64,000 bases of DNA, taken from an uncultured Mycoplasmatota bacterium (GTDB lineage Bacteria; Bacillota_I; Bacilli_A; RF39; UBA660). The stretch's first letter is position 1; each line of letters opens with the position of its first letter. The stretch lies in contig URCH01000003.1 in NCBI GenBank assembly GCA_900546275.1, forward strand, positions 37,991 through 101,990, in the 5' to 3' direction. Positions 2,940 through 40,332 of this stretch are shown piece by piece. The notes below the pieces were generated by a model. It was not told the DNA's origin. It saw nothing but the letters and a program-made list of their open reading frames with translations, and did no database searches. The translations under genes and the position numbers were made by a program.

Positions 2940-5081
2940 TTAAATTTGTTGTATTGTTTCATATAAACTAAACATTGGAATTACTATTGATAAAACAATT
3001 ACACCAACTATTGCAGTTAAGAAAACAAGTAATATTGGTTCCATTAATGTTTTAATTTTAGTAACCATATCTTTATGTAAGTCTTGATAGTATACAGAGA
3101 CTTTCTGCATCATTTCTGCTAATTGACCAGTACTTTCACCAGTCACCAACATCTCATATGCTGGAATTGGGAAAGCCCAATGATCCTTGAATGCCAAAGA
3201 TATTTTTTCACCCCTAGCAAGATTTGCAACCGTATCAACTATTATCATCTTATATATTTCATTATTAGTTATTTTATTTAATATATCCATACTATCAGTT
3301 ATATAAACATTATGAAATAATAAGGATGAAAAAGTTTTTGTAAGCATTGTAACTTCATTATATATTATTACATTTCCAATAACAGGTAAATGCATTAAGA
3401 ACCATTGCATTATAGTTCTAAATGGAGTTACTTTTTTATATAAAACAATTATTAATATAATAAATAAAACAATACCAAGTACAATAAATAATATATTTGC
3501 TTTAATAAAATCACTGACTGCTATTACAAATCTAGTAAACGCAGGGATCTTAGATGCATCCATTGATTCATACATTTTAACAAATTGTGGTACAACAAAT
3601 ATTAATATAAAAGTAATTACTACTATTGAAATAAAAAATACAATAGATGGATACATCATAGCATTAACCATTTGTTTTTTAGTTTGGTTTGCTTCGGTAT
3701 AATATTCAGCCATATCATCAAGTGACTCAGTTAATTCACCAGTTAATTCTGAAGCTTTAACCATATTTACCAATAATTTTGGAAATGTATTTCCTTGTTT
3801 TGCCATGGCGCTACTAAAACTTTCACCAGTTGATAAATCATATATCATTGTTCTAAATATATTTTTATATTTTTTTTGTTTATATTGTCTAGAAAGTATT
3901 TTTAATGCTTCAACTAAAGTAATACCTGCTTTTAAATAAGTAGATAATTGAGTTAAAAAGAATACTAAGTCTTTTGTTTTAAATTTTGGATTACCAGCTT
4001 CTCTATATAAATTCTGAATAAGCCAGTTAGTTTTTATACTATATACTTCATAACCTTCACTAAGTAAAAATGAGTGAACTTCTACTTTTGAATATGCAGC
4101 AAATCGTTCTTTAACTATTTTCCCTTCAGGATTTTTAGCTTCATATACATATACTATTTTATTTGCACTTTTTTCAGCGTCTTTTCCATCAAATTCAAGC
4201 ATTAGAGCTTGTCTATTTATATCTCTTTTGTTTCTTGCATTCTTAACAAATGATATATTATAAAATGCATTTTTAATCTTTTTACCAATAAGAGAAGGTA
4301 TTGTAGGAAGCATTTTAAAGAAAGCAGCAAGTTTTTGACTAGAAGTCATTTGATTTCTTTGTTTCTTTAGTTCTTCTTTTGCTTGTCTAACTTTTTCTTT
4401 TTCTAATTTTCTTTCTTCTTGTTCTTCAAGTTTTTTTCTAAGTTTTTCTTCTCTTAATTTTTCTTTTTCTAATTCTTTTGCAGTTTGTTTCTCTAACTTT
4501 TCTTTTTTTAATTTTTCTTTTTCTTCTTGTTTTTTTATTCTTTGTAAATACTTATCATCATTTTGTTTTAATAATTTTCTTTGTTCACGTAATTCTTCTT
4601 TTCTTAATCTTTTTTCTTCTCTAGCTTTTTCTCTTTTAGCAATTAGTTCATTCTTTTTTTGAATTCTTTCTTGTTGTTTTAAAAGTTTTTCTGCTTGTAA
4701 TTTTTCTTTTTTCTCTTTTCTTAATAATTTTCTTTGTTCATATAATTCTTCTTTTTTTAATCTTTTTTCTTCTCTTATTTTTTCTTTTTTAGCAATTAAT
4801 TCATTTTTTCTTTGAATTCTTTCTTGTTTTCTTAAAGTTTTTTCGGCATTATCGACATTATCAACATTATGTTTTTTATTTTTTAATAACATTTTATATA
4901 AATAAATAAAAGGTGTTGCAATTAAATATAAAACATATAAAATTCCTTTTAATGAATACATAATAAATTTAAATATATTATAAAATACAAAAAGTAAACC
5001 TAGAAATGGATACTTTATAAATTTTAATATAGTTGACAAAATATTATTACTTTTATTCGCCATATATTCATGCACTCCCAT
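2940..5081 (-). CDS. pilC: Type IV pilus platform protein PilC/GspF with a ~300-aa N-terminal extension (TM helix plus K/E-rich coiled coil)
   Basis: The C-terminal ~400 aa carry two GspF-type domains, including the IVYVYEAKNPEGKIVKERF start-like motif and a polytopic membrane region. The N-terminus has one hydrophobic helix followed by a lysine/glutamate-rich repeat. The likely true start is the second Met (MANKS...), which is preceded by a GGGAG ribosome-binding site. Confidence 0.8.
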   Translation of the reverse strand: MGVHEYMANKSNNILSTILKFIKYPFLGLLFVFYNIFKFIMYSLKGILYVLYLIATPFIYLYKMLLKNKKHNVDNVDNAEKTLRKQERIQRKNELIAKKEKIREEKRLKKEELYEQRKLLRKEKKEKLQAEKLLKQQERIQKKNELIAKREKAREEKRLRKEELREQRKLLKQNDDKYLQRIKKQEEKEKLKKEKLEKQTAKELEKEKLREEKLRKKLEEQEERKLEKEKVRQAKEELKKQRNQMTSSQKLAAFFKMLPTIPSLIGKKIKNAFYNISFVKNARNKRDINRQALMLEFDGKDAEKSANKIVYVYEAKNPEGKIVKERFAAYSKVEVHSFLLSEGYEVYSIKTNWLIQNLYREAGNPKFKTKDLVFFLTQLSTYLKAGITLVEALKILSRQYKQKKYKNIFRTMIYDLSTGESFSSAMAKQGNTFPKLLVNMVKASELTGELTESLDDMAEYYTEANQTKKQMVNAMMYPSIVFFISIVVITFILIFVVPQFVKMYESMDASKIPAFTRFVIAVSDFIKANILFIVLGIVLFIILIIVLYKKVTPFRTIMQWFLMHLPVIGNVIIYNEVTMLTKTFSSLLFHNVYITDSMDILNKITNNEIYKMIIVDTVANLARGEKISLAFKDHWAFPIPAYEMLVTGESTGQLAEMMQKVSVYYQDLHKDMVTKIKTLMEPILLVFLTAIVGVIVLSIVIPMFSLYETIQQI
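4524..4840. repeat. ~150-bp tandem duplication inside pilC, encoding two copies of QERIQ(R/K)KNELIAK(K/R)EK(I/A)REEKRL(K/R)KEEL(Y/R)EQRKLL
   Basis: The DNA copies at ~4570-4690 and ~4721-4840 are about 90% identical with a ~151-153 bp period. The protein repeats are clear in the supplied translation. Confidence 0.7.
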
Positions 5082-5626: not shown

Positions 5627-5650
5627 GCATTTATACAATAGTATAAATGC
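5627..5650 (-). terminator. Rho-independent terminator downstream of the lepB remnant
   Basis: Perfect 10-bp inverted repeat GCATTTATAC-aata-GTATAAATGC. On the minus strand it is followed by TTTTTTAT. Confidence 0.5.
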
Positions 5651-5761
5651 AACTGACTACCATAGTACAACATATTGTACTTTAGGTTCTAGAGTTTTGC
5701 GTTATTACCTTTCAATAACTTTGCCTGTGATAATTTTATAAGATTTTAATTTAAATGTCAA

Positions 5762-19241: not shown

Positions 19242-19613
19242 ATGGAATATATTAAAAAACTTGGAATTTCTTTTATTTTTTCACTATCATTTTTAATTGG
19301 TTTAACTTTTATTTTTTCTTCTCTTTATTATATAAATTTTATAGGTAATGGTTTATTTAAATTTATAAAAATATTAATACCTATTATTTCTATATTTATT
19401 GGTAGTTTTATAATAGGAAAAAAATCTAATTCTAAAGGATGGCTTGAAGGATTAAAATTTGGTTCTATGATAATTTTATTATTGTTCTTAATAAGCATTA
19501 TTTTTTTTAGAAGCGAATTAAGTGCTAAAGTAATATTATATTACTTAATACTTCTTCTTACTTCTAGCCTTTCTTCAATGATAGGTATTAATTTTAAAGC
19601 AGTTGACAAATAG
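19242..19613 (+). CDS. Small four-helix membrane protein (TIGR04086/YrzE-like)
   Basis: 123 aa. Four hydrophobic helices with a KSNSKGWLEGLKFG loop. Confidence 0.45.
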   Translation: MEYIKKLGISFIFSLSFLIGLTFIFSSLYYINFIGNGLFKFIKILIPIISIFIGSFIIGKKSNSKGWLEGLKFGSMIILLLFLISIIFFRSELSAKVILYYLILLLTSSLSSMIGINFKAVDK

Positions 19614-19637
19614 AATTTATATTATATAATAATAAAC

Positions 19638-20387
19638 GTGATTTTTATGAAAGAAGTATATTTTAAAAGAAACGAAATTAAATATTTAATACCAATATTT
19701 GTAGATAAAGGTATAGAACATGATAGATATTTATATACTATTGATGACAAAAATTATGTTATAAATTTATTTAAAGATAATGATATAAATATAATAAAAA
19801 GAAAAGTTTATAAACTAGAAAAATTAAATGAATACAAATTTTCTAAAAATATTATAATTCCTGATGGCATTGTATATATAGACAAAACACCTTCTGGTTT
19901 CACTACAGAACTATTAAAAAAAAGTGTACCTTTTAATGATCATGCTTTTGATAGTACAAAGAATAAAATAAAGTTACTTTTAAAAGCTAAAGAATTGATA
20001 TTAGAATTGAATAATCAAAATATAATTCATTCTGATATTGGTGTACATAATTTTATAGTTAAAAATAACACACCTTATTTATTAGATATGATAAGTTGTG
20101 AATTTGATGAATTTAAAAATACTAATCAAAATGCTTTTTATTCATATTATAAAAAAAGAATTGGTAAAATAGATGAATATTTTGATATATATTCATTTAA
20201 TGCAATGACATATGGATTTTTAAATAAAATTGCCGGATTTAAAATAATTGATAATATAATTGAGGGTAATAATACAATACTTAAAAATAAAGAAATTACT
20301 GAAATGTATTATAATTTATTATTATTCAAAAATAAATACAATGATGATTTTATAATAGATCATATAAAACAAAAAAAGATCAAATGA
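19638..20387 (+). CDS. Hypothetical protein with a protein-kinase-like catalytic loop
   Basis: The motif IIHSDIGVHNFIV matches the HxDxxxxN catalytic loop of kinase-like phosphotransferases (CotS/APH-like). The remainder is unassigned. Confidence 0.3.
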   Translation: MIFMKEVYFKRNEIKYLIPIFVDKGIEHDRYLYTIDDKNYVINLFKDNDINIIKRKVYKLEKLNEYKFSKNIIIPDGIVYIDKTPSGFTTELLKKSVPFNDHAFDSTKNKIKLLLKAKELILELNNQNIIHSDIGVHNFIVKNNTPYLLDMISCEFDEFKNTNQNAFYSYYKKRIGKIDEYFDIYSFNAMTYGFLNKIAGFKIIDNIIEGNNTILKNKEITEMYYNLLLFKNKYNDDFIIDHIKQKKIK

Positions 20388-20957: not shown

Positions 20958-20980
20958 TTTTTCTCCTCTTTCTATAAAAA

Positions 20981-21274
20981 CTAAAATAATTCATCAATAG
21001 TTGTTACATCTTCATTTATTAATGAAACAAATACGGGAATATTATAACCTGAAAACATTTTTACTATATCATTAACATTTTTTAAAAACAAATCTTCTTT
21101 ATAAATAATTAGTTGTTTAATATTTTTTATTCCATAAGACTTTAATAATTCAATATTTTTTTTTATCAATTCATAATTACATGATAAATTAAGTGCCGTA
21201 TCATATCCAAGTTCATCAATTATTTCATCAACTTCTTGTTCATTTAAACCAATATTATATAAATCTTTTATCAT
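20981..21274 (-). CDS. Hypothetical 97-aa helical protein (cassette member 3)
   Basis: Overlaps the upstream ORF by 20 nt. Leu-rich ~30-aa helical repeat character. No recognised domain. Confidence 0.4.
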   Translation of the reverse strand: MIKDLYNIGLNEQEVDEIIDELGYDTALNLSCNYELIKKNIELLKSYGIKNIKQLIIYKEDLFLKNVNDIVKMFSGYNIPVFVSLINEDVTTIDELF

Positions 21275-22970
21275 ATATTTTTGCCTCCAAATTTATTTTT
21301 TTTACGCAAGAAATTACATTATTTAATTCTTCTTGTTTTAGCATTGTATTAAATGTAACTATATAAATTAATAAATCTTCATTAATTTTTACACCTTCAG
21401 AGTTAAAAACTTGTAAATATCTTATAACTTTATTTCTCGATATAATTACACCATTAAAATTGTATATCAAATTGTTATCATTATCTAAAAACAAACTATC
21501 AAGTTGTTCAATAATTCCACTGCTGTAATTTAAACCAAATAAATTTGTGTTTTCATTTATTAATTTTAAATAATAATTTTCTTGTTCACTTTCATATTTA
21601 ACAGCATTATATAACCCATATGTATCTTCTTTTTTATTTCCAAAATTTGAAGTTGAAGTCGTAAATTCACCCATTAAAACTCTCTTTGTAATACCATTTT
21701 TAGCATTCATATATTTAAATGGATTTATTCCATTAGAAATAGCATATTTAACTCTATAAAAGTTAATATCAGAACAACTTAATCTAGATATATTATCAGA
21801 AATATACTCATAACATCCACATTCTATAGCATTATCAAGTCTTTCTAAAAGCAAATCATCTCTCGATCTAAAAACATGAAAACTAATCATATCAGATGTT
21901 TTATTTTCAAAAATATTTATACCATATTTTCTTAATATTAAATCTGCATGTGACGCAGAATGACTAAAGAAACTACTACATTTAAGAAAAACAGTAGAAG
22001 GATTTAAATTGTGTTGGTGTAAAAATTCAATATTCTTAAAAAATGTATTGTTTAACCCCACTCTATGATTCTTATTGATAACTTTTTTCTTCGCATTATT
22101 TTTTTTGACTCTTCCTTCAAAAAACGTATTTTTTATTCTTGGAATTAAAATAGTTGGATAAAGTTTTAAAAGTTCTAAAATATTGTTTTCTTCACATTCT
22201 TGTACGGTTTTTTCAATTATTTCAGAATTTGAATGAACTAAAATATTTATTAAGACTTCATATTTATTAAATAAAAATTCCAAATTATTTAATTTCATTG
22301 TTTCCAAGTTATTTTCTATTTTGTTATAATTTCCATTTGTTTTAAGATAATTAATTAATTCACCACTTATTTTATTATAATCTATATCATACTTACTGAA
22401 AATAGGAATTAATAATTCATCTTCTAATAAAACATTTTCTTGTAATGATTGAGTTTTTGTATATATTAATTCATTATAATTATTTACGTGTAAAAACAAA
22501 TTTATCTTTTTATTTAAAGATATATTTTCATTATTTAAAAGTTCATTTATAAAATCAAATTCATCTATTATTTCCTCTTGATCTTTTATTTTTTCAATTA
22601 ATAATTCAATATTAAATATTTCATTTTCAAGTTGCATTATTAAGTCTTTATCATTAGTTTCTTTTAATTTATTTATTTGATTTTTTAATAAATTAATGCA
22701 ATTAATTTGTTTGTCATCAAATCCAACATCAATTATAACTTTCTTTACACTATCATCTAATAAAAAGTAGTTGTTTAAAAATTCTAATGTTTCTTTGTCA
22801 AATTTAAATTCAAATGTTTGACAAAGTTTATTAAATAAATTGTAATCTAAAAAAAGAATATTTTCTAAATCACATTTTTTTAATAAATTATTTTTTTCAT
22901 TAATTTGTTTCATAATTTTGTTATCATTTTCTAAACGAAAGTTCAAATAATTTAATAATTCATTTCCCAT
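21255..22970 (-). CDS. Hypothetical 571-aa protein (cassette member 2)
   Basis: N-terminal half is coiled-coil/Asn-rich. C-terminal half has Cys/His-containing segments (CSSFFSHSASHAD, ECGCYEYISDNISRLSCSD). No known family recognised. Confidence 0.45.
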   Translation of the reverse strand: MGNELLNYLNFRLENDNKIMKQINEKNNLLKKCDLENILFLDYNLFNKLCQTFEFKFDKETLEFLNNYFLLDDSVKKVIIDVGFDDKQINCINLLKNQINKLKETNDKDLIMQLENEIFNIELLIEKIKDQEEIIDEFDFINELLNNENISLNKKINLFLHVNNYNELIYTKTQSLQENVLLEDELLIPIFSKYDIDYNKISGELINYLKTNGNYNKIENNLETMKLNNLEFLFNKYEVLINILVHSNSEIIEKTVQECEENNILELLKLYPTILIPRIKNTFFEGRVKKNNAKKKVINKNHRVGLNNTFFKNIEFLHQHNLNPSTVFLKCSSFFSHSASHADLILRKYGINIFENKTSDMISFHVFRSRDDLLLERLDNAIECGCYEYISDNISRLSCSDINFYRVKYAISNGINPFKYMNAKNGITKRVLMGEFTTSTSNFGNKKEDTYGLYNAVKYESEQENYYLKLINENTNLFGLNYSSGIIEQLDSLFLDNDNNLIYNFNGVIISRNKVIRYLQVFNSEGVKINEDLLIYIVTFNTMLKQEELNNVISCVKKINLEAKIYDKRFI

Positions 22971-22972
22971 AA

Positions 22973-24418
22973 TTATATCTTCCTTTCATTTGTATTTGAC
23001 AAGCAACTACTTTCTAAATTTTTTAACATTTCATTTTGATTTTCAACAAATAATTCTACTTTTTCTTCATATTTTTTCTTTTCATCAGTAGTTAATTGTT
23101 CATATTTTTGAGGTTGAATCTGTAAAAAATTCAATATCTCATCAATATAATCTGAATTGTCATAACATGTTTTTAAAGCTTTTTCAAAATTAAGCTTTTT
23201 ATCTTGTGGAGTACTCTTACATACACCAAACACTATAATAGCATGGTTAATATTTTCATATTTTTTAACATACTTGCCAAAATTTACTCCAAATCTAGAT
23301 AAAATAATTCTATTACTTCCATTCTTTATTTCTTTAACCATATATTTTTGCAAAAACTCTTTACTATAATTATCAGTTTTTAACTTATGAGGTTCTAACG
23401 AATCATATTCCTTTGGTAACATAGTGATAACTGACTTCATTTTTCCAATTGTATTAATACAGCTTGCTGGCATTTCATTTTCTAAGGTAGAATGGCCATT
23501 TTCACCTAAAAATATTAATAAAGTTTTAGCTTCTTTGTCATAAAAATTATCTTTCTTACTTTCTTCTATACTTGTTAATCTATAGTATAAATCATTAGCT
23601 TTATCTACAACATCTAATAACTCTTGATAATATTCATCTAAAGGTTCACCTAACAAACAAGCAGTTTCTAACGAGTCATAACATATTTTTAATTTTTTTT
23701 GAATTTCTATAACCTCACTAAAATCAGAAGAAGAAATATTTTTGCTATATCTGTACCCTTGTGTAATATAATAATCAAAATTTTCTCTTAGTATTTTTGC
23801 TTCATTTAAACATTCTCTACACATATCAGGAATTTCGTTTTCTGCGAATTCTTCTTTTTCCTCTATAAAATCTTCTTTTATTTCAGTTTTAATTAAATTA
23901 TCTTCTTTTGACTTTATTACATTTTTTAAATAATTAGCATTATCTTTTGCAAGTTCCATTGTTAATTCATATTGCATATTCTCATCACAATTTAATGAAT
24001 TTATTATTAAATCTATTTCATTGTTTGAAATAAATCTTTTAGAATGTTCATTTAAGATAGTTATTGTTTTTTTCTTATTTAAAATAATACTATTTAATTT
24101 TTCATATTGCAATTCTAGTTGATGTTTCTGATCTTTAATTGTATCTATAATTTTGTTAATTTTTTCTTTTATCCTTTTTATTTGCCCGGAAAATACATTT
24201 GCATCTAATTTTGGAAGTGTTTTTATTAAATTTAATAACTCAATTTTATCGTTTTCATTTAGATAACTAAAATTTTCCAATTTTACTTCATCTAACTCAT
24301 CAGCTTGATACATTTTAATAAATTTATTCAATGAATTTATTTCATTAATTATCTGTCTTAGTTGTGCTAATATATCATCTATTTGAGCCTTAGAGTTTTC
24401 TATTAATTTTTCTATCAT
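22973..24418 (-). CDS. Hypothetical 481-aa protein with a long N-terminal coiled coil (cassette member 1)
   Basis: Its stop is 2 nt from the downstream start, and its start is 2 nt after the tgt stop. Contains a CRECLNEAK segment and a C-terminal alpha/beta-looking region. No known family recognised. Confidence 0.45.
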   Translation of the reverse strand: MIEKLIENSKAQIDDILAQLRQIINEINSLNKFIKMYQADELDEVKLENFSYLNENDKIELLNLIKTLPKLDANVFSGQIKRIKEKINKIIDTIKDQKHQLELQYEKLNSIILNKKKTITILNEHSKRFISNNEIDLIINSLNCDENMQYELTMELAKDNANYLKNVIKSKEDNLIKTEIKEDFIEEKEEFAENEIPDMCRECLNEAKILRENFDYYITQGYRYSKNISSSDFSEVIEIQKKLKICYDSLETACLLGEPLDEYYQELLDVVDKANDLYYRLTSIEESKKDNFYDKEAKTLLIFLGENGHSTLENEMPASCINTIGKMKSVITMLPKEYDSLEPHKLKTDNYSKEFLQKYMVKEIKNGSNRIILSRFGVNFGKYVKKYENINHAIIVFGVCKSTPQDKKLNFEKALKTCYDNSDYIDEILNFLQIQPQKYEQLTTDEKKKYEEKVELFVENQNEMLKNLESSCLSNTNERKI

Positions 24419-25581: not shown

Positions 25582-25609
25582 TTGACAAATTTATTTTTTT
25601 TTGTATAAT
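25582..25609 (+). promoter_or_regulatory. Near-consensus sigma-A promoter for the 25638-27349 operon
   Basis: TTGACA (25582-25587), a 16-nt spacer, then TGTATAAT (25602-25609). Confidence 0.55.
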
Positions 25610-25637
25610 ATATTGCATATCTGAAAGGGGAACGTTT

Positions 25638-26168
25638 ATGAAAATAAATTTAAATGCAATTGTTACAAGAGAGCAATTGGAAAAAATGGGAATCGAAAAG
25701 TATATGGAGATTTCAAAAAAAGGAAAAATGGAAAGAAATTATATAATTGATCATATTCCAACTATAACTGAAAATATATTACCAAAAAAAGCTCATGAGA
25801 TTTCTTTTACTTCTGCAAGAAATAAAGAACTTTCTAATATGGAAAAGAACATATTAACTTCTTTAATTACATATTCTAACAGTGAAACTTTTTGTAATTA
25901 TTTAAGTCAAGAATTTAGTAAAGATGAATTAATTCAAATTTCAAAAATTTTAACTAAATATGTGAATATAACAAAAACTTGTAGAATATTTAATAAGGAT
26001 GTTAACTTAGATTTAAGTATATTTGATCCTATTATTTCTAGAGCTGATTTAATTCACGGATTTACAGTTCCAAGTATTTATTTAAATAGATTAAATGGAA
26101 TTTTGGTATATGAAAGTGAATTATTAGATAATGAACTATCTAAAAAGAAAGAATTAATAATTAGATAA
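25638..26168 (+). CDS. Hypothetical protein
   Basis: ORF with GGGGA ribosome-binding site. No domain recognised. Co-transcribed with the ThyA-like gene. Confidence 0.4.
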   Translation: MKINLNAIVTREQLEKMGIEKYMEISKKGKMERNYIIDHIPTITENILPKKAHEISFTSARNKELSNMEKNILTSLITYSNSETFCNYLSQEFSKDELIQISKILTKYVNITKTCRIFNKDVNLDLSIFDPIISRADLIHGFTVPSIYLNRLNGILVYESELLDNELSKKKELIIR

Positions 26169-26221
26169 GCCTTTAATGGCTTTTTCTTTTTGTTTATGAT
26201 ACAATTATTACAGGTGATAAT

Positions 26222-27349
26222 ATGATAGATATAGATGGAAAAAAATATGAAATAAATAGAAAAACTGCTATTGTAACTAACTGGGATAAAATTTATTGTA
26301 ACATATTAAAAAGAATATTAAAAAAAGGAGAATTGTGCAAAAACAGAACAGGAATTGATACTTTATCTATTGAAGGAGTATATTTTAAATTAGATGTTGG
26401 TAAATCTTTTCCTATTCTTGAAACAAAAAAAGTAGCACTTGCTAATACAATTACAGAACTACTTTGGATATATCAAGCACAAACTAATGATGTAAAATGG
26501 CTTCATGATAGACAAAATCATATATGGGATGACTGGATGATAGATGATGATGGTATATATCGTATATATGAACCATATATTAATGAAAATAAAAAAAATA
26601 TTGTAAAAGTAAAAGACATATATGGAAATGATACTAATCTAACTGCTAGTAGTTTAAAGGAAAATAGAACCATAAAAGAAGCTATTTACTATGGACCTGA
26701 ATATGCTCATACCATTGGTACTGCTTATGGATATGTCGTTAAAGAAACAAAAGAATTTGATAATGTATTATATTCATTAAAAAATAATCCTACAAGTAGA
26801 AGAAATGTTGTATCATTAAGACAAGCTAATTTACTTAAAACTGGTGTATTAGAACCTTGTGTATGGGCAAGTACATATAAAGTTTCTAATGGAAAATTAA
26901 ATATTAATGTAGATGTAAGAAGTAATGATATGCCGATTGGCAATCCATTCAATGTAACACAATATGCAATTTTACTTAGTTTACTTGCAAAAGTATCTAA
27001 TTTAGAAGTTGGTAATTTAAACTGGACGATATCTGATTGTCATATATATGTTAATCAATTAGAACAAATTAAACTACAATTAAGTAGATTTGATAAATTA
27101 TTAAAATGGGAAAGTTTTATAAAAAATAATGATGATAAAGAAATAATTAAAGAATATAAAAAAATATTAGAAGGTTCTGATATTGAAGAATTAATGACAT
27201 TAAAGCACCTTATTACAAGAGAAAATCCAGAACTTTATTTAAGCAACAAAGATAATTTTTATGAATTTGATAATAAAAAAGAAAATGAAGATATAAAAGT
27301 TTTAAAATATAAGTCATTACCATATATAAAAATGCCAGTAGCCCAATAA
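26222..27349 (+). CDS. Thymidylate synthase (ThyA) family protein with insertions and an ~80-aa C-terminal extension
   Basis: Conserved ThyA residues are present: KNRTG (Arg21), ELLWIY...IWDDW folate-binding segment, SRRNVVSL (Arg126'/127'), EPC (catalytic Cys), RSND (Arg166), NPFNV (Asn177, uracil-specific) and SDCHIY (His207/Tyr209). The His after the catalytic Cys is replaced by Val. Length is 375 aa versus the usual 264-320. Confidence 0.7.
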   Translation: MIDIDGKKYEINRKTAIVTNWDKIYCNILKRILKKGELCKNRTGIDTLSIEGVYFKLDVGKSFPILETKKVALANTITELLWIYQAQTNDVKWLHDRQNHIWDDWMIDDDGIYRIYEPYINENKKNIVKVKDIYGNDTNLTASSLKENRTIKEAIYYGPEYAHTIGTAYGYVVKETKEFDNVLYSLKNNPTSRRNVVSLRQANLLKTGVLEPCVWASTYKVSNGKLNINVDVRSNDMPIGNPFNVTQYAILLSLLAKVSNLEVGNLNWTISDCHIYVNQLEQIKLQLSRFDKLLKWESFIKNNDDKEIIKEYKKILEGSDIEELMTLKHLITRENPELYLSNKDNFYEFDNKKENEDIKVLKYKSLPYIKMPVAQ

Positions 27350-27386
27350 AAAAAGCGCTGTTAAAGCGTTTTTATTTTGTTTTTAT
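27347..27386. terminator. Bidirectional terminator-like hairpin between convergent genes
   Basis: AAAAAGCGCtgttaaaGCGTTTTTATTTTGTTTTT. A short GC stem flanked by A and T runs. Confidence 0.4.
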
Positions 27387-27442
27387 ATTCACATCAATAA
27401 CCCAATGGTATCTTCTTTTATTTAAATTCTGTAACATATATA

Positions 27443-28324
27443 TTATAATCCAAGAAATTTATAAAATCCCTTTTTTATTTTTTTCTCTTTTTTATTATTA
27501 CTTGATTTTGCTTCTTCAAGTGAGCACATATAATCCAAATATTCTCTATCACACTTATCTAAATCTTTGTTTGTAGCTTCAGGATTATTTAAATAATCGA
27601 AATAGACACCTAACTTAATTTCATTGTTATCTTCATATCGATTACTTATAAGATCTGTTAAAACTTGTTTTTTTTCTTCTGCATCTACACAATTATGTAT
27701 ACTTGCTAAATTTATTAATATAATATTAATTTCAAGAGAAATTTCAAAATTAGAAAAATCATTTTGTGAATTTAATTTTTTTATTTCATAAAGACATTTA
27801 TACAAATTTGCTCCTTTTACATCTTTTGCAAATAAATATATATATTCAGCATCATTTGTTTCTATTATCGCATTTTCTAGTTTTTCTATGTTTGCTCCTT
27901 TTATATAACGAGCAAAATTATATATATTTTTAGCATTTTTTATTTCTATTATTGCATTTTCTAATTTTTCTTTATTTGTATTTATTGTTATACGAGCAAA
28001 ATTAAATAAAATAAATGCATTTTTCATATTTATTACTGCGTCTTCTAATTTTTGTATATTTACACCTTCTATATTATCTATTAATGCCCCAATACATACT
28101 TCATTATTAGTTTCTATTACTTTATTTTCTAAATTCTCTAAGTCTATATAATTTATAAACTCTTAGTCATCTTTAATCAAAGAAATAAAATTAACAACAT
28201 CATACATCAAATAATCACTACTAAAGGCATTTTTCATTAGAATTTCTGTTTGCCTTAAATTACTTTTTTCTTTAGCGTTTAAAAAAGCTTTTATTTTTTC
28301 ATTTAATTCTTTATTATTCAACAT
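27443..28324 (-). pseudogene. 33-aa helical-repeat protein interrupted by a single in-frame TAA
   Basis: Reverse translation from ATG at 28324 reads MLNNKELNEKIKAFLNAKEK...SLIKDD*EFINYIDLENLENKVIETNNEVCIGALIDNIEGVNIQKLEDAVINMKNAFILFNFARITIN.... It joins in-frame with the listed 194-aa ORF. The repeat unit (F/Y)A(R/K)xIKGANIEKLENAIIE is visible on both sides of the stop. Confidence 0.5.
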
Positions 28325-34745: not shown

Positions 34746-35615
34746 TTAATCATTTACTACTGTTATTACTCTTTTTGCATTAGTTGTATTTCCTGATGGA
34801 TCTTTTGCTGTATAAAGTATAACATGCTTGCCTGGTACGTTACTTAATGAAGATACATTAGTAACCTTAATACCTATATTTGAATTATCAATAGCATATA
34901 CTCCTTTGTTAACATAAGATCCATTAAGTTCTGATACCTTTACGATATTATCTTCTGGAAAATATATTACAGGTGGAATTGTATCTCTTACAACAACAGT
35001 TCTTATGTTTGTAGTAGTTAATCCCTTATCAGTGACAGAATATATTAATTTATATGTTCCTAACTTTGAAGTATCAATTTTTTCCCCCTCATTATCATTT
35101 AATTTAATTTGAGGAGGATTCAGTGTCAAAGGACTACCTGTATTTGAATATGCTGTACCGCCTTTTTCTACATATTCTGTATTTATTTCAACATATTCTA
35201 CATAATTACCATTTAATCTAATAACAGGTGCATTCTCATTATTTTCTGTACTTTCTTCTTCTAAATCTATTATGTTTACATCATAACTATAAGAATTATT
35301 TTCTCTTGATATAACAACAGTGGATTCATTGGAAATTGTTAATTTTGTTTTAGCATTTATCATTTTTATTGGTAAAAGACCTTTTCTTTTTAGTTCTCCT
35401 ACATAAAGCGTAATACTTTGTTTATCAGGTATAACAACATATTCTTTTATTACCATATCTTTTGCGGCAGCTACTATTTGTTCTTTTTGAAGATTGAAAG
35501 CTTTTTCTTCTGATTTTCTTATATTATCCGTAACTAAAGGAAACGTAATAGCAAAAATCGCTCCAAGAATTATTATAACAGCCAGTAATTCTACTAAAGT
35601 AAATCCTTTCTTCAT
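34746..35615 (-). CDS. Type IV pilin-like protein with two C-terminal Ig-like (DUF5011-type) domains
   Basis: Class III signal peptide MKKGFTLVELLAVIIILG. The C-terminal repeats ...YVE(K/N)G(G)(T/V)YA(Y/I)(S/D)N... TY(K/-)LIY(S/T)(V/A)(T/K)D are DUF5011-like. Confidence 0.7.
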   Translation of the reverse strand: MKKGFTLVELLAVIIILGAIFAITFPLVTDNIRKSEEKAFNLQKEQIVAAAKDMVIKEYVVIPDKQSITLYVGELKRKGLLPIKMINAKTKLTISNESTVVISRENNSYSYDVNIIDLEEESTENNENAPVIRLNGNYVEYVEINTEYVEKGGTAYSNTGSPLTLNPPQIKLNDNEGEKIDTSKLGTYKLIYSVTDKGLTTTNIRTVVVRDTIPPVIYFPEDNIVKVSELNGSYVNKGVYAIDNSNIGIKVTNVSSLSNVPGKHVILYTAKDPSGNTTNAKRVITVVND

Positions 35616-39240: not shown

Positions 39241-40332
39241 TTATTTAAATAATGATTGTGAAACTGTTATAACTGGTCTAATACCAAATGAAAGTGACAT
39301 ATAAACTGTATTTTCTGAAATTCTACCAGAATTATCTATAGCCCAAGCCGAAACTTGTGAATTAACACCAGCACTCTTTGTACTTGTCCAATACCCATAA
39401 ACTGATGCACCCATCTCAAACGAATCGTTAAATTCATTATTGCAGCCATTTTTAACACAACCTTTTGTATAATCAAATAACCAAGAATATTTACTTTCAC
39501 CCTTAGCTTTTGCAACTTGAGTTTGCCAATCTTTAACCGTACTACCTTTTCCATCTAAATAAAAATATTCAGACTCATTTTTAGAACTCCAATTTATTTT
39601 ACTATCTGCACCTACTATATGTGCAATTTCATCTGCTGTAATAAGTCTAGATTGTTGTTGCCAACTACTTTCTATGACTAAATCATCCAATTCCTTTTGT
39701 GCGCCGTTCATTCCATCAGAAACATTATTTGTAATATTCCAAGCAACATATTTAGTGGTATTGTGATCAAGTATCATTGTATAACTTTTATTATCATTTA
39801 TTTTATATACATACCATTTCATACATCCAGTTTTTGTTCCTGTTTCACTTGTTGAATTTGAAGAATCACATTTTTTAGTAAAATCAGTAGGGTCCAAATA
39901 AACAACTGCTTTATATGTTTTATCATTATTATTCAATTCCTCTATAGTTGGACCATATATGTCATTACAATCATCACTAATTTTTTTAGATTTTCCATCT
40001 ACATATTCAATTTTTTTACCGTCTATACAAAAAATTGCTGATTTAACATAACCATTATTTACATTATATATTCCATTTGTTGGTTTTGTTCCACTAACTT
40101 CTGGATTTAAATAATCATAAGAGTATACTCCATTAGATATTTCATCTTTATCTACCATACCTTTTAATATTTTATTTTCTATTGCCTTTACATATCCTGT
40201 AGAGCTTTGTTCTGCAGCACCTACTCTTGAGTTATCTATAACTTTAAGCACAATTGGGGTTGCGATTAATGCAATGATAGCTAATATTACTATGACAGCT
40301 AATAATTCTACTAATGTAAAACCTTTTTTCAT
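39241..40332 (-). CDS. Type IV pilin-like protein with a large C-terminal passenger domain ending in a GIRPVI motif
   Basis: Class III signal peptide MKKGFTLVELLAVIVILAIIALIA. C-terminus ...SLSFGIRPVITVSQSLFK. Confidence 0.65.
   Translation of the reverse strand: MKKGFTLVELLAVIVILAIIALIATPIVLKVIDNSRVGAAEQSSTGYVKAIENKILKGMVDKDEISNGVYSYDYLNPEVSGTKPTNGIYNVNNGYVKSAIFCIDGKKIEYVDGKSKKISDDCNDIYGPTIEELNNNDKTYKAVVYLDPTDFTKKCDSSNSTSETGTKTGCMKWYVYKINDNKSYTMILDHNTTKYVAWNITNNVSDGMNGAQKELDDLVIESSWQQQSRLITADEIAHIVGADSKINWSSKNESEYFYLDGKGSTVKDWQTQVAKAKGESKYSWLFDYTKGCVKNGCNNEFNDSFEMGASVYGYWTSTKSAGVNSQVSAWAIDNSGRISENTVYMSLSFGIRPVITVSQSLFK

What the first reader, a model, noticed from the sequence alone, without database searches (positions are those of the whole stretch)
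25582..27349. Divergent, orphan thymidylate-synthase-family enzyme with a C-terminal tail, behind a consensus promoter
The 375-aa protein keeps every ThyA catalytic residue (Arg21, Cys146, Arg166, Asn177 (uracil-specific), His207, Tyr209, RR'). The PCH His is replaced by Val (EPCVW). It has large insertions after the folate-binding helix and an ~80-aa K/E-rich C-terminal extension. It is co-transcribed with a 176-aa unknown protein rather than with dfrA/folA, the usual thyA partner. TS-fold enzymes also include dUMP/dCMP hydroxymethylases used in nucleotide hypermodification. The Asn177 equivalent argues for a uracil substrate, but the unusual architecture and partner leave open a non-canonical role (for example, dUMP hydroxymethylation or a moonlighting RNA-binding tail).
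Basis: partly seen in the sequence, partly recalled or inferred. Interest (0 to 1): 0.5.

Follow-up and report, generated by a model that had tools for sequence, protein, structure and literature searches.

The report
Ordinary thymidylate synthase with lineage-specific insertions
This gene encodes the normal housekeeping enzyme that makes thymidine nucleotides, in a longer form that is shared by hundreds of uncultured gut Bacilli; the supposed C-terminal tail is really an internal insertion, so the finding is largely ordinary.

Summary
The 375-aa ORF at 26222-27349 (+) is real and is a folate-dependent thymidylate synthase (ThyA). It matches Pfam PF00303 at 9.8e-65 and scores 178 bits on the TIGR03284 equivalog (cut-off 108). 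All catalytic and ligand-binding residues are present, including Asn at the uracil-specificity position.

1. It is not an orphan. At least 574 species-level genomes of uncultured Bacilli encode relatives, at about 36-65% identity in the 80 loci listed. In 59 of 80 loci examined, a DHFR gene lies directly beside it, as in a classic thyA-folA operon.
2. There is no C-terminal tail. The K/E-rich stretch is a 41-aa helical insertion inside the large domain, and the canonical C-terminus (IKMPVAQ) follows it.
3. PCV in place of PCH also occurs in the solved B. subtilis ThyA, the closest solved structure.

The SPO1 dUMP hydroxymethylase and the T4 dCMP hydroxymethylase are distant (about 23% core identity).

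What is particular to this species: thyA sits away from folA, next to tgt. It lies behind a species-restricted 176-aa orphan ORF with a perfect promoter match, and a terminator-like hairpin separates the two genes. No folA, thyX or second thyA lies in the 64-kb window, and I could not examine the rest of the genome.

Verdict: a new member of a known kind, of low interest.

The parts
25582..25609 (+). Sigma-70-type promoter match, TTGACA-16 nt-TATAAT. It lies upstream of the 176-aa ORF, not directly upstream of thyA.
   Evidence: 12 of 12 positions match. The window holds 2 perfect sites against 0.30 expected.
25638..26168 (+). 176-aa ORF of unknown function, a species-restricted orphan. An SD-like AAGGGGA lies 7 nt upstream.
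   Evidence: It has no significant Pfam match (one weak hit below the curated cut-off) and no NCBIfam, PHROG or PADLOC match. Its only homologues are three clusters at 87-98% identity, two of them shorter fragments. The single-sequence AF2 model is uninformative, pLDDT 39.7. Against a same-species contig there are 4 synonymous and 5 non-synonymous codon differences.
26167..26192 (+). Terminator-like hairpin (AAGCC-loop-GGCTT) plus a T-run, between the 176-aa ORF and thyA.
   Evidence: -7.9 kcal/mol, z-score -2.7.
26212..26217 (+). Shine-Dalgarno AGGTGA, 4 nt before the thyA ATG.
   Evidence: Read directly from the sequence.
26222..27349 (+). thyA, a folate-dependent thymidylate synthase of 375 aa. 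The catalytic Cys213 codon is at 26858-26860.
   Evidence: PF00303 at 9.8e-65. TIGR03284 scores 178.3 bits against a cut-off of 108.35. The AF2 model has pLDDT 93.8. All top 50 Foldseek PDB hits are TS, the best being B. subtilis ThyA 1b02.
26222..26284 (+). N-terminal extension of about 21 aa relative to E. coli TS, with two short predicted strands (residues 2-4 and 7-9).
26546..26704 (+). Insertion 1: 53 aa at the variable small-domain site (query about 109-161), with four predicted beta-strands.
   Evidence: Across the family its size varies from 21 to 85 aa.
27092..27214 (+). Insertion 2: a 41-aa K/E-rich helical insertion (query about 291-331) between the QLSR helix and the C-terminal strands.
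   Evidence: The listed closest relatives (L015-L024) carry 58-64 aa here; across the family the size varies from 4 to 97 aa.
27215..27346 (+). Canonical TS C-terminal segment, ending in IKMPVAQ.
   Evidence: It aligns with E. coli 227-264 and L. casei 279-316. A terminal Q is typical of the family.
27351..27383 (+). Intrinsic-terminator-like hairpin plus a T-run after thyA.
   Evidence: Nine pairs; -10.4 kcal/mol, z-score -2.4.

Best explanation
The gene encodes the organism's housekeeping folate-dependent thymidylate synthase (ThyA, EC 2.1.1.45).

Inferred mechanism. Cys213 attacks C6 of dUMP. The substrate is held by Arg42, Arg233 and Arg193'/Arg194' from the partner subunit, and is read as uracil by Asn244. 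The methylene of 5,10-methylene-tetrahydrofolate is transferred to C5. A hydride from the cofactor then completes the reaction under the closed C-terminus, giving dTMP and dihydrofolate.

Family. The protein belongs to a clade-specific 'long' ThyA subfamily of uncultured, mostly gut or rumen Bacilli. The subfamily is marked by PCV instead of PCH, a C-terminal Gln, an N-terminal extension of 4-24 aa, an enlarged small domain and a helical insertion before the C-terminal strands. The insertions vary greatly in length between species, so they are most likely surface decorations rather than a new catalytic function.

This species. thyA has been separated from folA. It lies next to tgt, downstream of an orphan 176-aa ORF with a consensus promoter. 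thyA is probably expressed by read-through of a weak terminator or from its own weak promoter.

Shown here: family membership, residue conservation, fold, and synteny of orthologues. Inferred: enzyme activity and transcription.
For: - Pfam PF00303 matches at 9.8e-65.
- TIGR03284 thym_sym, an equivalog model, scores 178.3 bits against its cut-off of 108.35. Family members P0006, P0066 and P0117 also pass it.
- The query carries every one of the 15 catalytic and binding positions checked, apart from His147 to Val. About 65 family sequences from different species carry the same set, and these positions are invariant or nearly invariant in a 45-sequence family alignment.
- The canonical C-terminus is retained.
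- The AF2 model has pLDDT 93.8 and pTM 0.92. Foldseek against the PDB returns only TS in the top 50. The best hit is B. subtilis ThyA 1b02, and target-normalised TM-scores reach 0.84-0.90.
- Core identity is 39.8% to B. subtilis ThyA, 36.6% to L. casei TS and 35.7% to E. coli TS. It is 23.2% to SPO1 gp29 and 22.7% to T4 gp42. In a rough NJ tree the family is monophyletic in 40 of 50 bootstraps and sits with the canonical TS.
- The closest relatives have a DHFR gene that abuts or overlaps thyA, in a conserved housekeeping neighbourhood. DHFR is adjacent in 59 of 80 species loci.
- The window context is chromosomal housekeeping: relA, tgt, murF, lexA, RNase HIII, mutL.
- G+C of the 2-kb bins spanning thyA is 23-25%, within the window's range of 20-29%.
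- Four nearly identical proteins from independent samples show the shortened insertion is real.
Against: - There is no biochemical or genetic test.
- No DHFR, ThyX or second ThyA lies in the 64-kb window. I could not locate this species' folA, so the DHF-recycling partner is unverified.
- The terminal residue is Gln, not the hydrophobic Ile or Val that packs on the cofactor in studied TS. It is unstudied in this context, although it is the usual ending across the family.
- The solved TS and viral structure models searched cover no more than about two-thirds of the model (query-normalised TM-score at most 0.67). About 110 residues of insertions therefore have no characterised counterpart, and an added function cannot be excluded.
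- The NJ tree is crude and has few reference sequences.
Confidence: 0.86

Rival explanations
1. It is a dUMP hydroxymethylase (SPO1 gp29-like), or another TS-fold enzyme that supplies a modified pyrimidine for DNA or nucleotide hypermodification.
For: - The TS fold with Asn at position 177 is compatible with a dUMP substrate.
- Its length of 375 aa is close to the 383 aa of SPO1 gp29.
- Position 147 is not His. That position is one of two found to differ most between modifying and non-modifying TS homologues in PMC8670742.
- In this species the gene is not next to folA.
Against: - Identity to gp29 is only 23%, and the alignment stops before the C-terminal region.
- gp29 owes its length to a different C-terminal region and lacks the TS C-terminus. 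In the alignment it also lacks W80, W83 and Y94, all of which the query keeps.
- gp29 scores 58 bits on TIGR03284, below the cut-off, against 178 bits for the query.
- The gene context is chromosomal housekeeping, with no phage or modification genes nearby.
- No phage record shows even 60% identity, and the listed hits are about 25-35% identical.
- Orthologues are coupled to DHFR. That makes sense only if dihydrofolate is produced, which is the thymidylate synthase reaction; this link rests on established knowledge of the TS and DHFR cycle.
- Val at position 147 also occurs in the solved B. subtilis ThyA.
Confidence: 0.03
2. It is a genuine ThyA whose lineage-specific insertions add a second function. 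One option is docking of DHFR or other dNTP-synthesis enzymes, a non-covalent analogue of protozoan DHFR-TS. Another is binding of its own mRNA. In this species the orphan 176-aa ORF might be a functional partner.
For: - The insertions are predicted with high confidence as folded elements: four strands, plus helices 277-302, 305-317 and 321-332, with pLDDT mostly above 90.
- They are kept, with conserved motifs, across the 45-sequence family alignment and in the species loci examined.
- No solved TS or viral TS model has them.
- The 176-aa ORF and thyA keep the same arrangement in all same-species contigs.
Against: - Insertion lengths vary widely within the clade: insertion 1 from 21 to 85 aa and insertion 2 from 4 to 97 aa. 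Some members have almost no insertion 2 yet still have an adjacent DHFR.
- Long insertion 2 forms also occur without an adjacent DHFR (L025-L029), so there is no correlation.
- The small domain of TS is known to be highly variable in size and structure (PMC6479881).
- The 176-aa ORF has no homologues outside the species and shows relaxed-looking variation, 4 synonymous to 5 non-synonymous differences.
- A terminator-like hairpin separates it from thyA.
Confidence: 0.07
3. It is a recently acquired gene from a phage or mobile element, a phi3T- or B. subtilis ThyA-type 'foreign' TS, rather than the native housekeeping copy.
For: - The gene has moved relative to the conserved thyA-folA locus of its relatives.
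- It sits next to a strain-variable region: a 3.44-kb insert upstream of tgt, and a disrupted gene plus 86 extra bases downstream.
- Its nearest solved relative is B. subtilis ThyA. From my own knowledge, that enzyme is closely related to the phage phi3T TS.
Against: - It is nested in the tree among the chromosomal thyA-folA orthologues of related Bacilli.
- Its G+C equals that of its surroundings.
- No phage record reaches 60% identity and the listed hits are about 25-35% identical.
- No integrase or phage genes are adjacent.
- The 3.44-kb strain-variable insert does not include thyA.
Confidence: 0.04

Closest known systems
Bacillus subtilis thymidylate synthase A (ThyA; PDB 1B02, 1BKO)
   Same: It is the best structural match (Foldseek E 9e-27, target-normalised TM-score 0.84) and the most similar reference, at 39.8% core identity. 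It shares Val in the PCV motif, the RSNDM-GNPFN motif and the 'WI.Q' helix. NCBIfam's best-scoring model, NF002495, has a 279-position profile, the same length as this protein.
   Different: The query has a 21-aa N-terminal extension, a 53-aa small-domain insertion and a 41-aa helical insertion. It lacks a 9-residue loop after Tyr94 and ends in PVAQ rather than EVAV. It scores below NF002495's own cut-off, 187 against 327 bits.
Lactobacillus casei and Enterococcus faecalis 'long' thymidylate synthases (PDB 1LCA, 3UWL)
   Same: These are Firmicute ThyA with an insertion of about 50 aa at the same small-domain site. All catalytic residues and the C-terminus are shared, with 36.6% core identity.
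   Different: The inserted sequences are not alignable. The E. faecalis small domain is five alpha-helices (PMC6479881), whereas four beta-strands are predicted here. These enzymes have PCH and no insertion before the C-terminal strands.
Bacillus phage SPO1 gp29, a dUMP hydroxymethylase
   Same: It has a TS fold, a uracil nucleotide substrate with Asn at position 177, and a similar length of 383 aa.
   Different: Identity is 23%, limited to the N-terminal 230 residues or so. The extra length lies in an unrelated C-terminal region and there is no TS C-terminus. W80, W83 and Y94 are not conserved in the alignment. It fails the TIGR03284 cut-off and sits in a phage context.
Phage T4 gp42, a dCMP hydroxymethylase (PDB 1B5D)
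   Same: It has a TS fold and the catalytic Cys, Glu58 and Arg residues.
   Different: It has Asp at the position 177 equivalent (cytosine specificity), where the query has Asn. Core identity is 22.7%, and it has no TS C-terminus.

Membership tests
Folate-dependent thymidylate synthase (ThyA, EC 2.1.1.45) | The sequence matches the family models above their curated thresholds. | tested here: met
   PF00303 scores 218.8 bits against 24.3. The TIGR03284 equivalog scores 178.3 bits against 108.35. The narrower NF0024xx sub-models are not reached.
Folate-dependent thymidylate synthase (ThyA, EC 2.1.1.45) | A catalytic nucleophile Cys in the P-C-[HV] loop, plus the dUMP phosphate-binding arginines (R21, R166, R126', R127'). 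| tested here: met
   C213, R42, R233, R193 and R194 are present. C213, R42, R193 and R194 are invariant and R233 nearly invariant in the family.
Folate-dependent thymidylate synthase (ThyA, EC 2.1.1.45) | Asn177, the determinant of uracil specificity. Its role is described in PMC8670742, citing Hardy & Nalivaika 1992. | tested here: met
   N244 lies in the GNPFN motif.
Folate-dependent thymidylate synthase (ThyA, EC 2.1.1.45) | The general acid/base and cofactor-site residues E58, W80, W83, Y94, D169, H207 and Y209. | tested here: met
   E79, W102, W105, Y169, D236, H274 and Y276 are present.
Folate-dependent thymidylate synthase (ThyA, EC 2.1.1.45) | The C-terminal segment that closes over the ternary complex (..K-A-P-V-A-[IV]-COOH). 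| tested here: met
   The query ends in IKMPVAQ, aligned to the end of E. coli and L. casei TS. The terminal residue is Gln rather than Ile or Val in nearly all family members. The functional effect was not tested.
Folate-dependent thymidylate synthase (ThyA, EC 2.1.1.45) | The TS fold. | tested here: met
   The AF2 model has pLDDT 93.8. All top 50 PDB matches are TS, with target-normalised TM-scores up to 0.90.
Folate-dependent thymidylate synthase (ThyA, EC 2.1.1.45) | Genomic coupling to dihydrofolate reductase. This is typical of the family, not defining. | tested here: inconclusive
   There is no DHFR in the 64-kb window. DHFR is adjacent in 59 of 80 orthologous loci, including all the closest relatives. 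The rest of this genome could not be examined.
Folate-dependent thymidylate synthase (ThyA, EC 2.1.1.45) | The enzyme converts dUMP and CH2-H4folate to dTMP and H2folate. | not testable with these tools
   This needs an enzyme assay or thyA complementation.
dUMP hydroxymethylase (SPO1 gp29 type) | Closer sequence relationship to gp29 than to TS, and a gp29-type C-terminal region in place of the TS C-terminus. | tested here: not met
   Identity to gp29 is 23%, against 36-40% to TS. The TS C-terminus is present. gp29 fails TIGR03284 and the query passes it.
dUMP hydroxymethylase (SPO1 gp29 type) | A phage or hypermodification gene context. | tested here: not met
   The neighbours are tgt, murF, relA and lexA. 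The neighbours have no PHROG matches beyond TS itself.
dCMP hydroxymethylase (T4 gp42 type) | Asp at the position equivalent to E. coli TS 177 (Asp179 in T4). | tested here: not met
   The query has Asn (N244) and T4 gp42 has Asp in the same alignment column.

The most novel reading that the evidence does not exclude
The three lineage-specific modules (N-terminal extension, beta-rich small domain and helical insertion) may not be neutral decorations. They could give this ThyA subfamily an extra function, such as non-covalent docking of DHFR or other dNTP-synthesis enzymes, or RNA binding. In this species, thyA is unlinked from folA and the helical insertion is trimmed by about 23 residues, so the orphan 176-aa ORF might be a new partner.
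Probability: 0.07. Interest if true: 0.45.

Novelty: new member of a known kind. Interest (0 to 1): 0.14.

Why it matters
Its significance is mainly as a correction. This gene should be annotated as ordinary thyA, not flagged as a candidate nucleotide-modification enzyme.

The modest point of interest is structural. A large clade of uncultured gut Bacilli carries a ThyA with about 110 extra residues in three modules, and none of the solved TS or viral TS models searched shows them. The modules expand and contract between species. This makes the clade a natural series for studying how a highly conserved drug-target enzyme tolerates insertions.

The separation of thyA from folA in this species, and the orphan ORF upstream, are minor points of genome evolution.

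Tried and rejected
- dUMP and dCMP hydroxymethylase: rejected on identity, HMM scores, C-terminus, residue pattern and context.
- Prophage or mobile origin: no phage record shows even 60% identity and the listed hits are about 25-35% identical. The neighbours have no PHROG or PADLOC hits. The strain-variable 3.44-kb insert does not contain thyA.
- The 176-aa ORF as a divergent DHFR or other known family: no significant Pfam match (one weak hit below the curated cut-off) and no NCBIfam, PHROG or PADLOC match. tblastn with three DHFR queries (two from relatives, one from E. coli) finds nothing in the window. The single-sequence AF2 model was too poor to use, pLDDT 39.7.
- A riboswitch or leader RNA upstream of thyA: Rfam at gathering thresholds finds only a c-di-GMP-I riboswitch elsewhere in the window.
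- A separate thyA promoter: an extended -10-like TGATACAAT lies at 26197-26205. It sits only 16 nt before the ATG, so a transcript from it would begin within or just upstream of the Shine-Dalgarno sequence. I judged it doubtful.
- Locating this species' folA: a DHFR homologue search gave over 1,100 hits with no way to tie one to this species. One candidate, P0185, sits in a different context. I abandoned this.
- The window's own species is not among the GTDB representative genomes matched; the best is 65% identical.
- Foldseek against afdb50 was unavailable.
Full report
**1. What is at the coordinates**

The window is very A+T-rich, with G+C of 20-29% per 2-kb bin. Between 25582 and 27349 on the + strand lie the following features:
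- a perfect TTGACA-16 nt-TATAAT match at 25582-25609;
- a 176-aa ORF at 25638-26168;
- a 53-nt spacer;
- a 375-aa ORF at 26222-27349;
- a terminator-like hairpin at 27351-27373.

The perfect promoter match is one of two in the 64-kb window, against 0.30 expected; 5 of 100 shuffles reach two. The count of looser promoter-like sites in the region is not above chance (27 found, 30.8 expected).

The spacer between the two ORFs holds a hairpin of -7.9 kcal/mol (z-score -2.7) followed by UUUUUCUUUUU. Co-transcription is therefore possible by read-through but is not established. thyA has its own AGGTGA ribosome-binding site 4 nt before the ATG.

**2. The protein is a thymidylate synthase**

- It matches Pfam PF00303 at 9.8e-65.
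- It passes the curated cut-off of the NCBIfam equivalog TIGR03284, 178.3 against 108.35 bits.
- All significant PDB sequence hits shown are thymidylate synthases. The best are C. glutamicum TS and B. subtilis ThyA.

I aligned it with E. coli, L. casei and B. subtilis TS. I had typed those sequences from memory and then verified them as identical to PDB chains 1aob, 1lca and 1b02. These correspond to E. coli R21, E58, W80, W83, Y94, R126, R127, C146, R166, S167, D169, N177, H207 and Y209. His147 is indeed replaced by Val. The same PCV motif is seen in the solved B. subtilis ThyA.

**3. The 'C-terminal tail' is an internal insertion**

The Pfam match stops at profile position 227 of 266, which may be why the end of the protein looked like an extension. 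In the alignments, the last 44 residues or so (ENPELYLSNKDNFYEF...EDIKVLKYKSLPYIKMPVAQ) align with the end of canonical TS (E. coli PLPKLIIKRKPESIFDY...[20 protein letters not shown]). The extra K/E-rich residues form a 41-aa insertion, query about 291-331, between the QLSR helix and the final strands.

Relative to E. coli, the protein also has:
- a 21-aa N-terminal extension;
- a 53-aa insertion at the small-domain site, the same site as the L. casei insertion but not alignable with it;
- a 9-residue deletion after Tyr94.

An AlphaFold2 model built on a 45-sequence family alignment is confident (pLDDT 93.8, pTM 0.92). It predicts two short strands (residues 2-4 and 7-9) in the N-terminal extension, four strands for insertion 1, and helices 277-302, 305-317 and 321-332 for insertion 2.

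Foldseek against the PDB returns only TS in the top 50. B. subtilis ThyA 1b02 comes first, and target-normalised TM-scores are 0.84-0.90. Query-normalised TM-scores are about 0.63, because no solved TS has the insertions. No viral model covers them either. [quoted passage not shown]

**4. It is not an orphan**

The protein database holds four clusters at 99% identity from independent samples. It also holds more than 100 clusters at 50-66% identity and 363-411 aa, some named 'thymidylate synthase [Bacilli bacterium]'.

A scan of GTDB species representatives found 574 genomes that encode relatives. Almost all are uncultured Bacilli, 'Tenericutes' UMGS bins or Firmicutes CAG bins from gut and rumen.

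About 65 full-length sequences from different species all keep the complete catalytic set with Val147. Nearly all of them end in Gln, typically ..P[VIL][AT]Q.

The insertions behave as variable modules: insertion 1 spans 21-85 aa, insertion 2 spans 4-97 aa, and the N-terminal extension spans 4-24 aa. The query's insertion 2 is about 23 residues shorter than in its nearest relatives.

An exhaustive HMMER search of cluster representatives shows a continuum from this clade into ordinary TS. There are 9,538 representatives at E <= 0.001, and the query's own cluster representative is 63% identical.

**5. The orthologues are housekeeping thyA coupled to folA**

The closest relatives are P0006, P0007, P0011 and P0047, at 59-65% identity. 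They lie in a conserved neighbourhood, rlmN-PP2C-pknB-rsgA-rpe-HIT-thyA-folA-cotE, and the DHFR gene abuts or overlaps thyA.

Of 80 species loci, 59 have DHFR directly adjacent: 58 within about 65 nt downstream (most within 30 nt) and one upstream. Coupling to DHFR is what is expected of an enzyme that produces dihydrofolate, and that is the thymidylate synthase reaction rather than hydroxymethylation. This last step is an inference from established pathway knowledge.

About a quarter of family members are not next to folA, so the window's arrangement is not unique. Among those members, long and short insertion 2 forms both occur, so insertion 2 length does not track DHFR adjacency.

**6. Hydroxymethylase alternatives**

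I retrieved SPO1 gp29, which is annotated as a dUMP hydroxymethylase.
- It is only 23% identical to the query, over its N-terminal 230 residues or so.
- It gets its 383-aa length from an unrelated C-terminal region.
- In the alignment it lacks W80, W83, Y94 and the TS C-terminus.
- It scores 58 bits on TIGR03284, below the cut-off.

T4 gp42, whose sequence I verified against PDB 1b49, has Asp at the specificity position where the query has Asn.

A rough NJ tree on 285 well-aligned columns puts the Bacilli clade with B. subtilis, L. casei and E. coli TS; the clade is monophyletic in 40 of 50 bootstraps. Both hydroxymethylases fall far outside. Core identities are 36-40% to the TS references and 23% to the hydroxymethylases.

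In phage genomes no record shows even 60% identity; the listed hits are about 25-35% identical and nearly all annotated as TS.

**7. What is specific to this species**

The window is a chromosomal housekeeping region carrying relA, tgt, murF, lexA, RNase HIII, mutL and murC-like genes. No DHFR, ThyX or second ThyA is detectable in it by tblastn (ThyX query verified).

Same-species contigs L010, L011 and L095 are about 98% identical and keep the tgt / 176-aa ORF / thyA arrangement. thyA has therefore moved away from the ancestral thyA-folA locus in this lineage.

The upstream 176-aa ORF is the real orphan:
- it has no family matches;
- its only homologues are three clusters at 87-98% identity, two of them shorter fragments;
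- its structure model is uninformative;
- between strains it shows 4 synonymous and 5 non-synonymous codon differences, against 19 and 3 for tgt and 10 and 5 for thyA. The numbers are small, but they do not suggest a strongly constrained partner enzyme.

I could not find this species' folA, and its genome is not among the GTDB representatives matched.

**8. Conclusion**

The ORFs, the promoter match, the catalytic residues, the PCV motif and the small-domain insertion are real. The C-terminal tail, the orphan status and the co-transcription claim are not supported as stated.

The best explanation is an ordinary housekeeping ThyA that belongs to a clade-specific long subfamily. The residual novelty is three uncharacterised insertion modules whose size varies between species. 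They are most likely tolerated surface decorations. An added function cannot be excluded, and I put that at about 7%.

Interest is low. The decisive tests are thyA complementation, a dTMP-versus-hm-dUMP assay, and a search of the complete genome for folA and thyX.

Noticed in passing
window 20973-24416 (ORFs 21255-22970 on the - strand, 571 aa; 22973-24418 on the - strand, 481 aa): This is a 3.44-kb strain-variable insertion between a 187-aa ORF and tgt. It is absent from the same-species contig L010, which is otherwise collinear and 98% identical. The two large ORFs have no significant Pfam match (one weak hit below the curated cut-off) and no PHROG or PADLOC match. It could be an uncharacterised accessory or defence module.
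   Followed up: partly
window 5645-5735 (- strand): A c-di-GMP-I riboswitch aptamer (Rfam RF01051, 61.9 bits against a gathering score of 35). It lies upstream of small ORFs and of a 713-aa gene at 2940-5081 on the - strand.
   Followed up: no
window 27386-28324 (- strand ORFs 27443-28027 and 28163-28324): The gene downstream of thyA is an intact 283-aa ORF in same-species contigs L010, L011 and L095. In the window it is split into ORFs of 194 aa and 53 aa, which suggests a pseudogene or a sequencing error. The window also has 86 extra bases (27386-27471) flanked by a repeat of about 17 bp.
   Followed up: partly
window 19603-19649 (+ strand): This is the second perfect TTGACA-16 nt-TATAAT in the window. 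It ends 7 nt before the GTG at 19638 and 16 nt before the ATG at 19647 of an unknown 249-aa ORF, with no evident Shine-Dalgarno sequence. The mRNA may have a very short leader or none.
   Followed up: no
window 25638-26168 (+ strand): The 176-aa ORF upstream of thyA is restricted to this species: only three homologous clusters at 87-98% identity, two of them shorter fragments. Its ratio of non-synonymous to synonymous differences between strains is higher than for its neighbours (4 synonymous to 5 non-synonymous). It might be a young or fast-evolving gene.
   Followed up: partly
loci L015-L094 (genome contigs): Within the Bacilli ThyA clade, total protein length runs from about 290 to 470 aa. 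The range comes from independent expansion and contraction at the same three sites. One locus, L087, has DHFR upstream of thyA instead of downstream.
   Followed up: partly
window 34746-35615 and 39241-40332 (- strand): Two proteins carry the prokaryotic N-terminal methylation motif, so they are pilin- or pseudopilin-like. One of them also has bacterial Ig-like surface domains.
   Followed up: no
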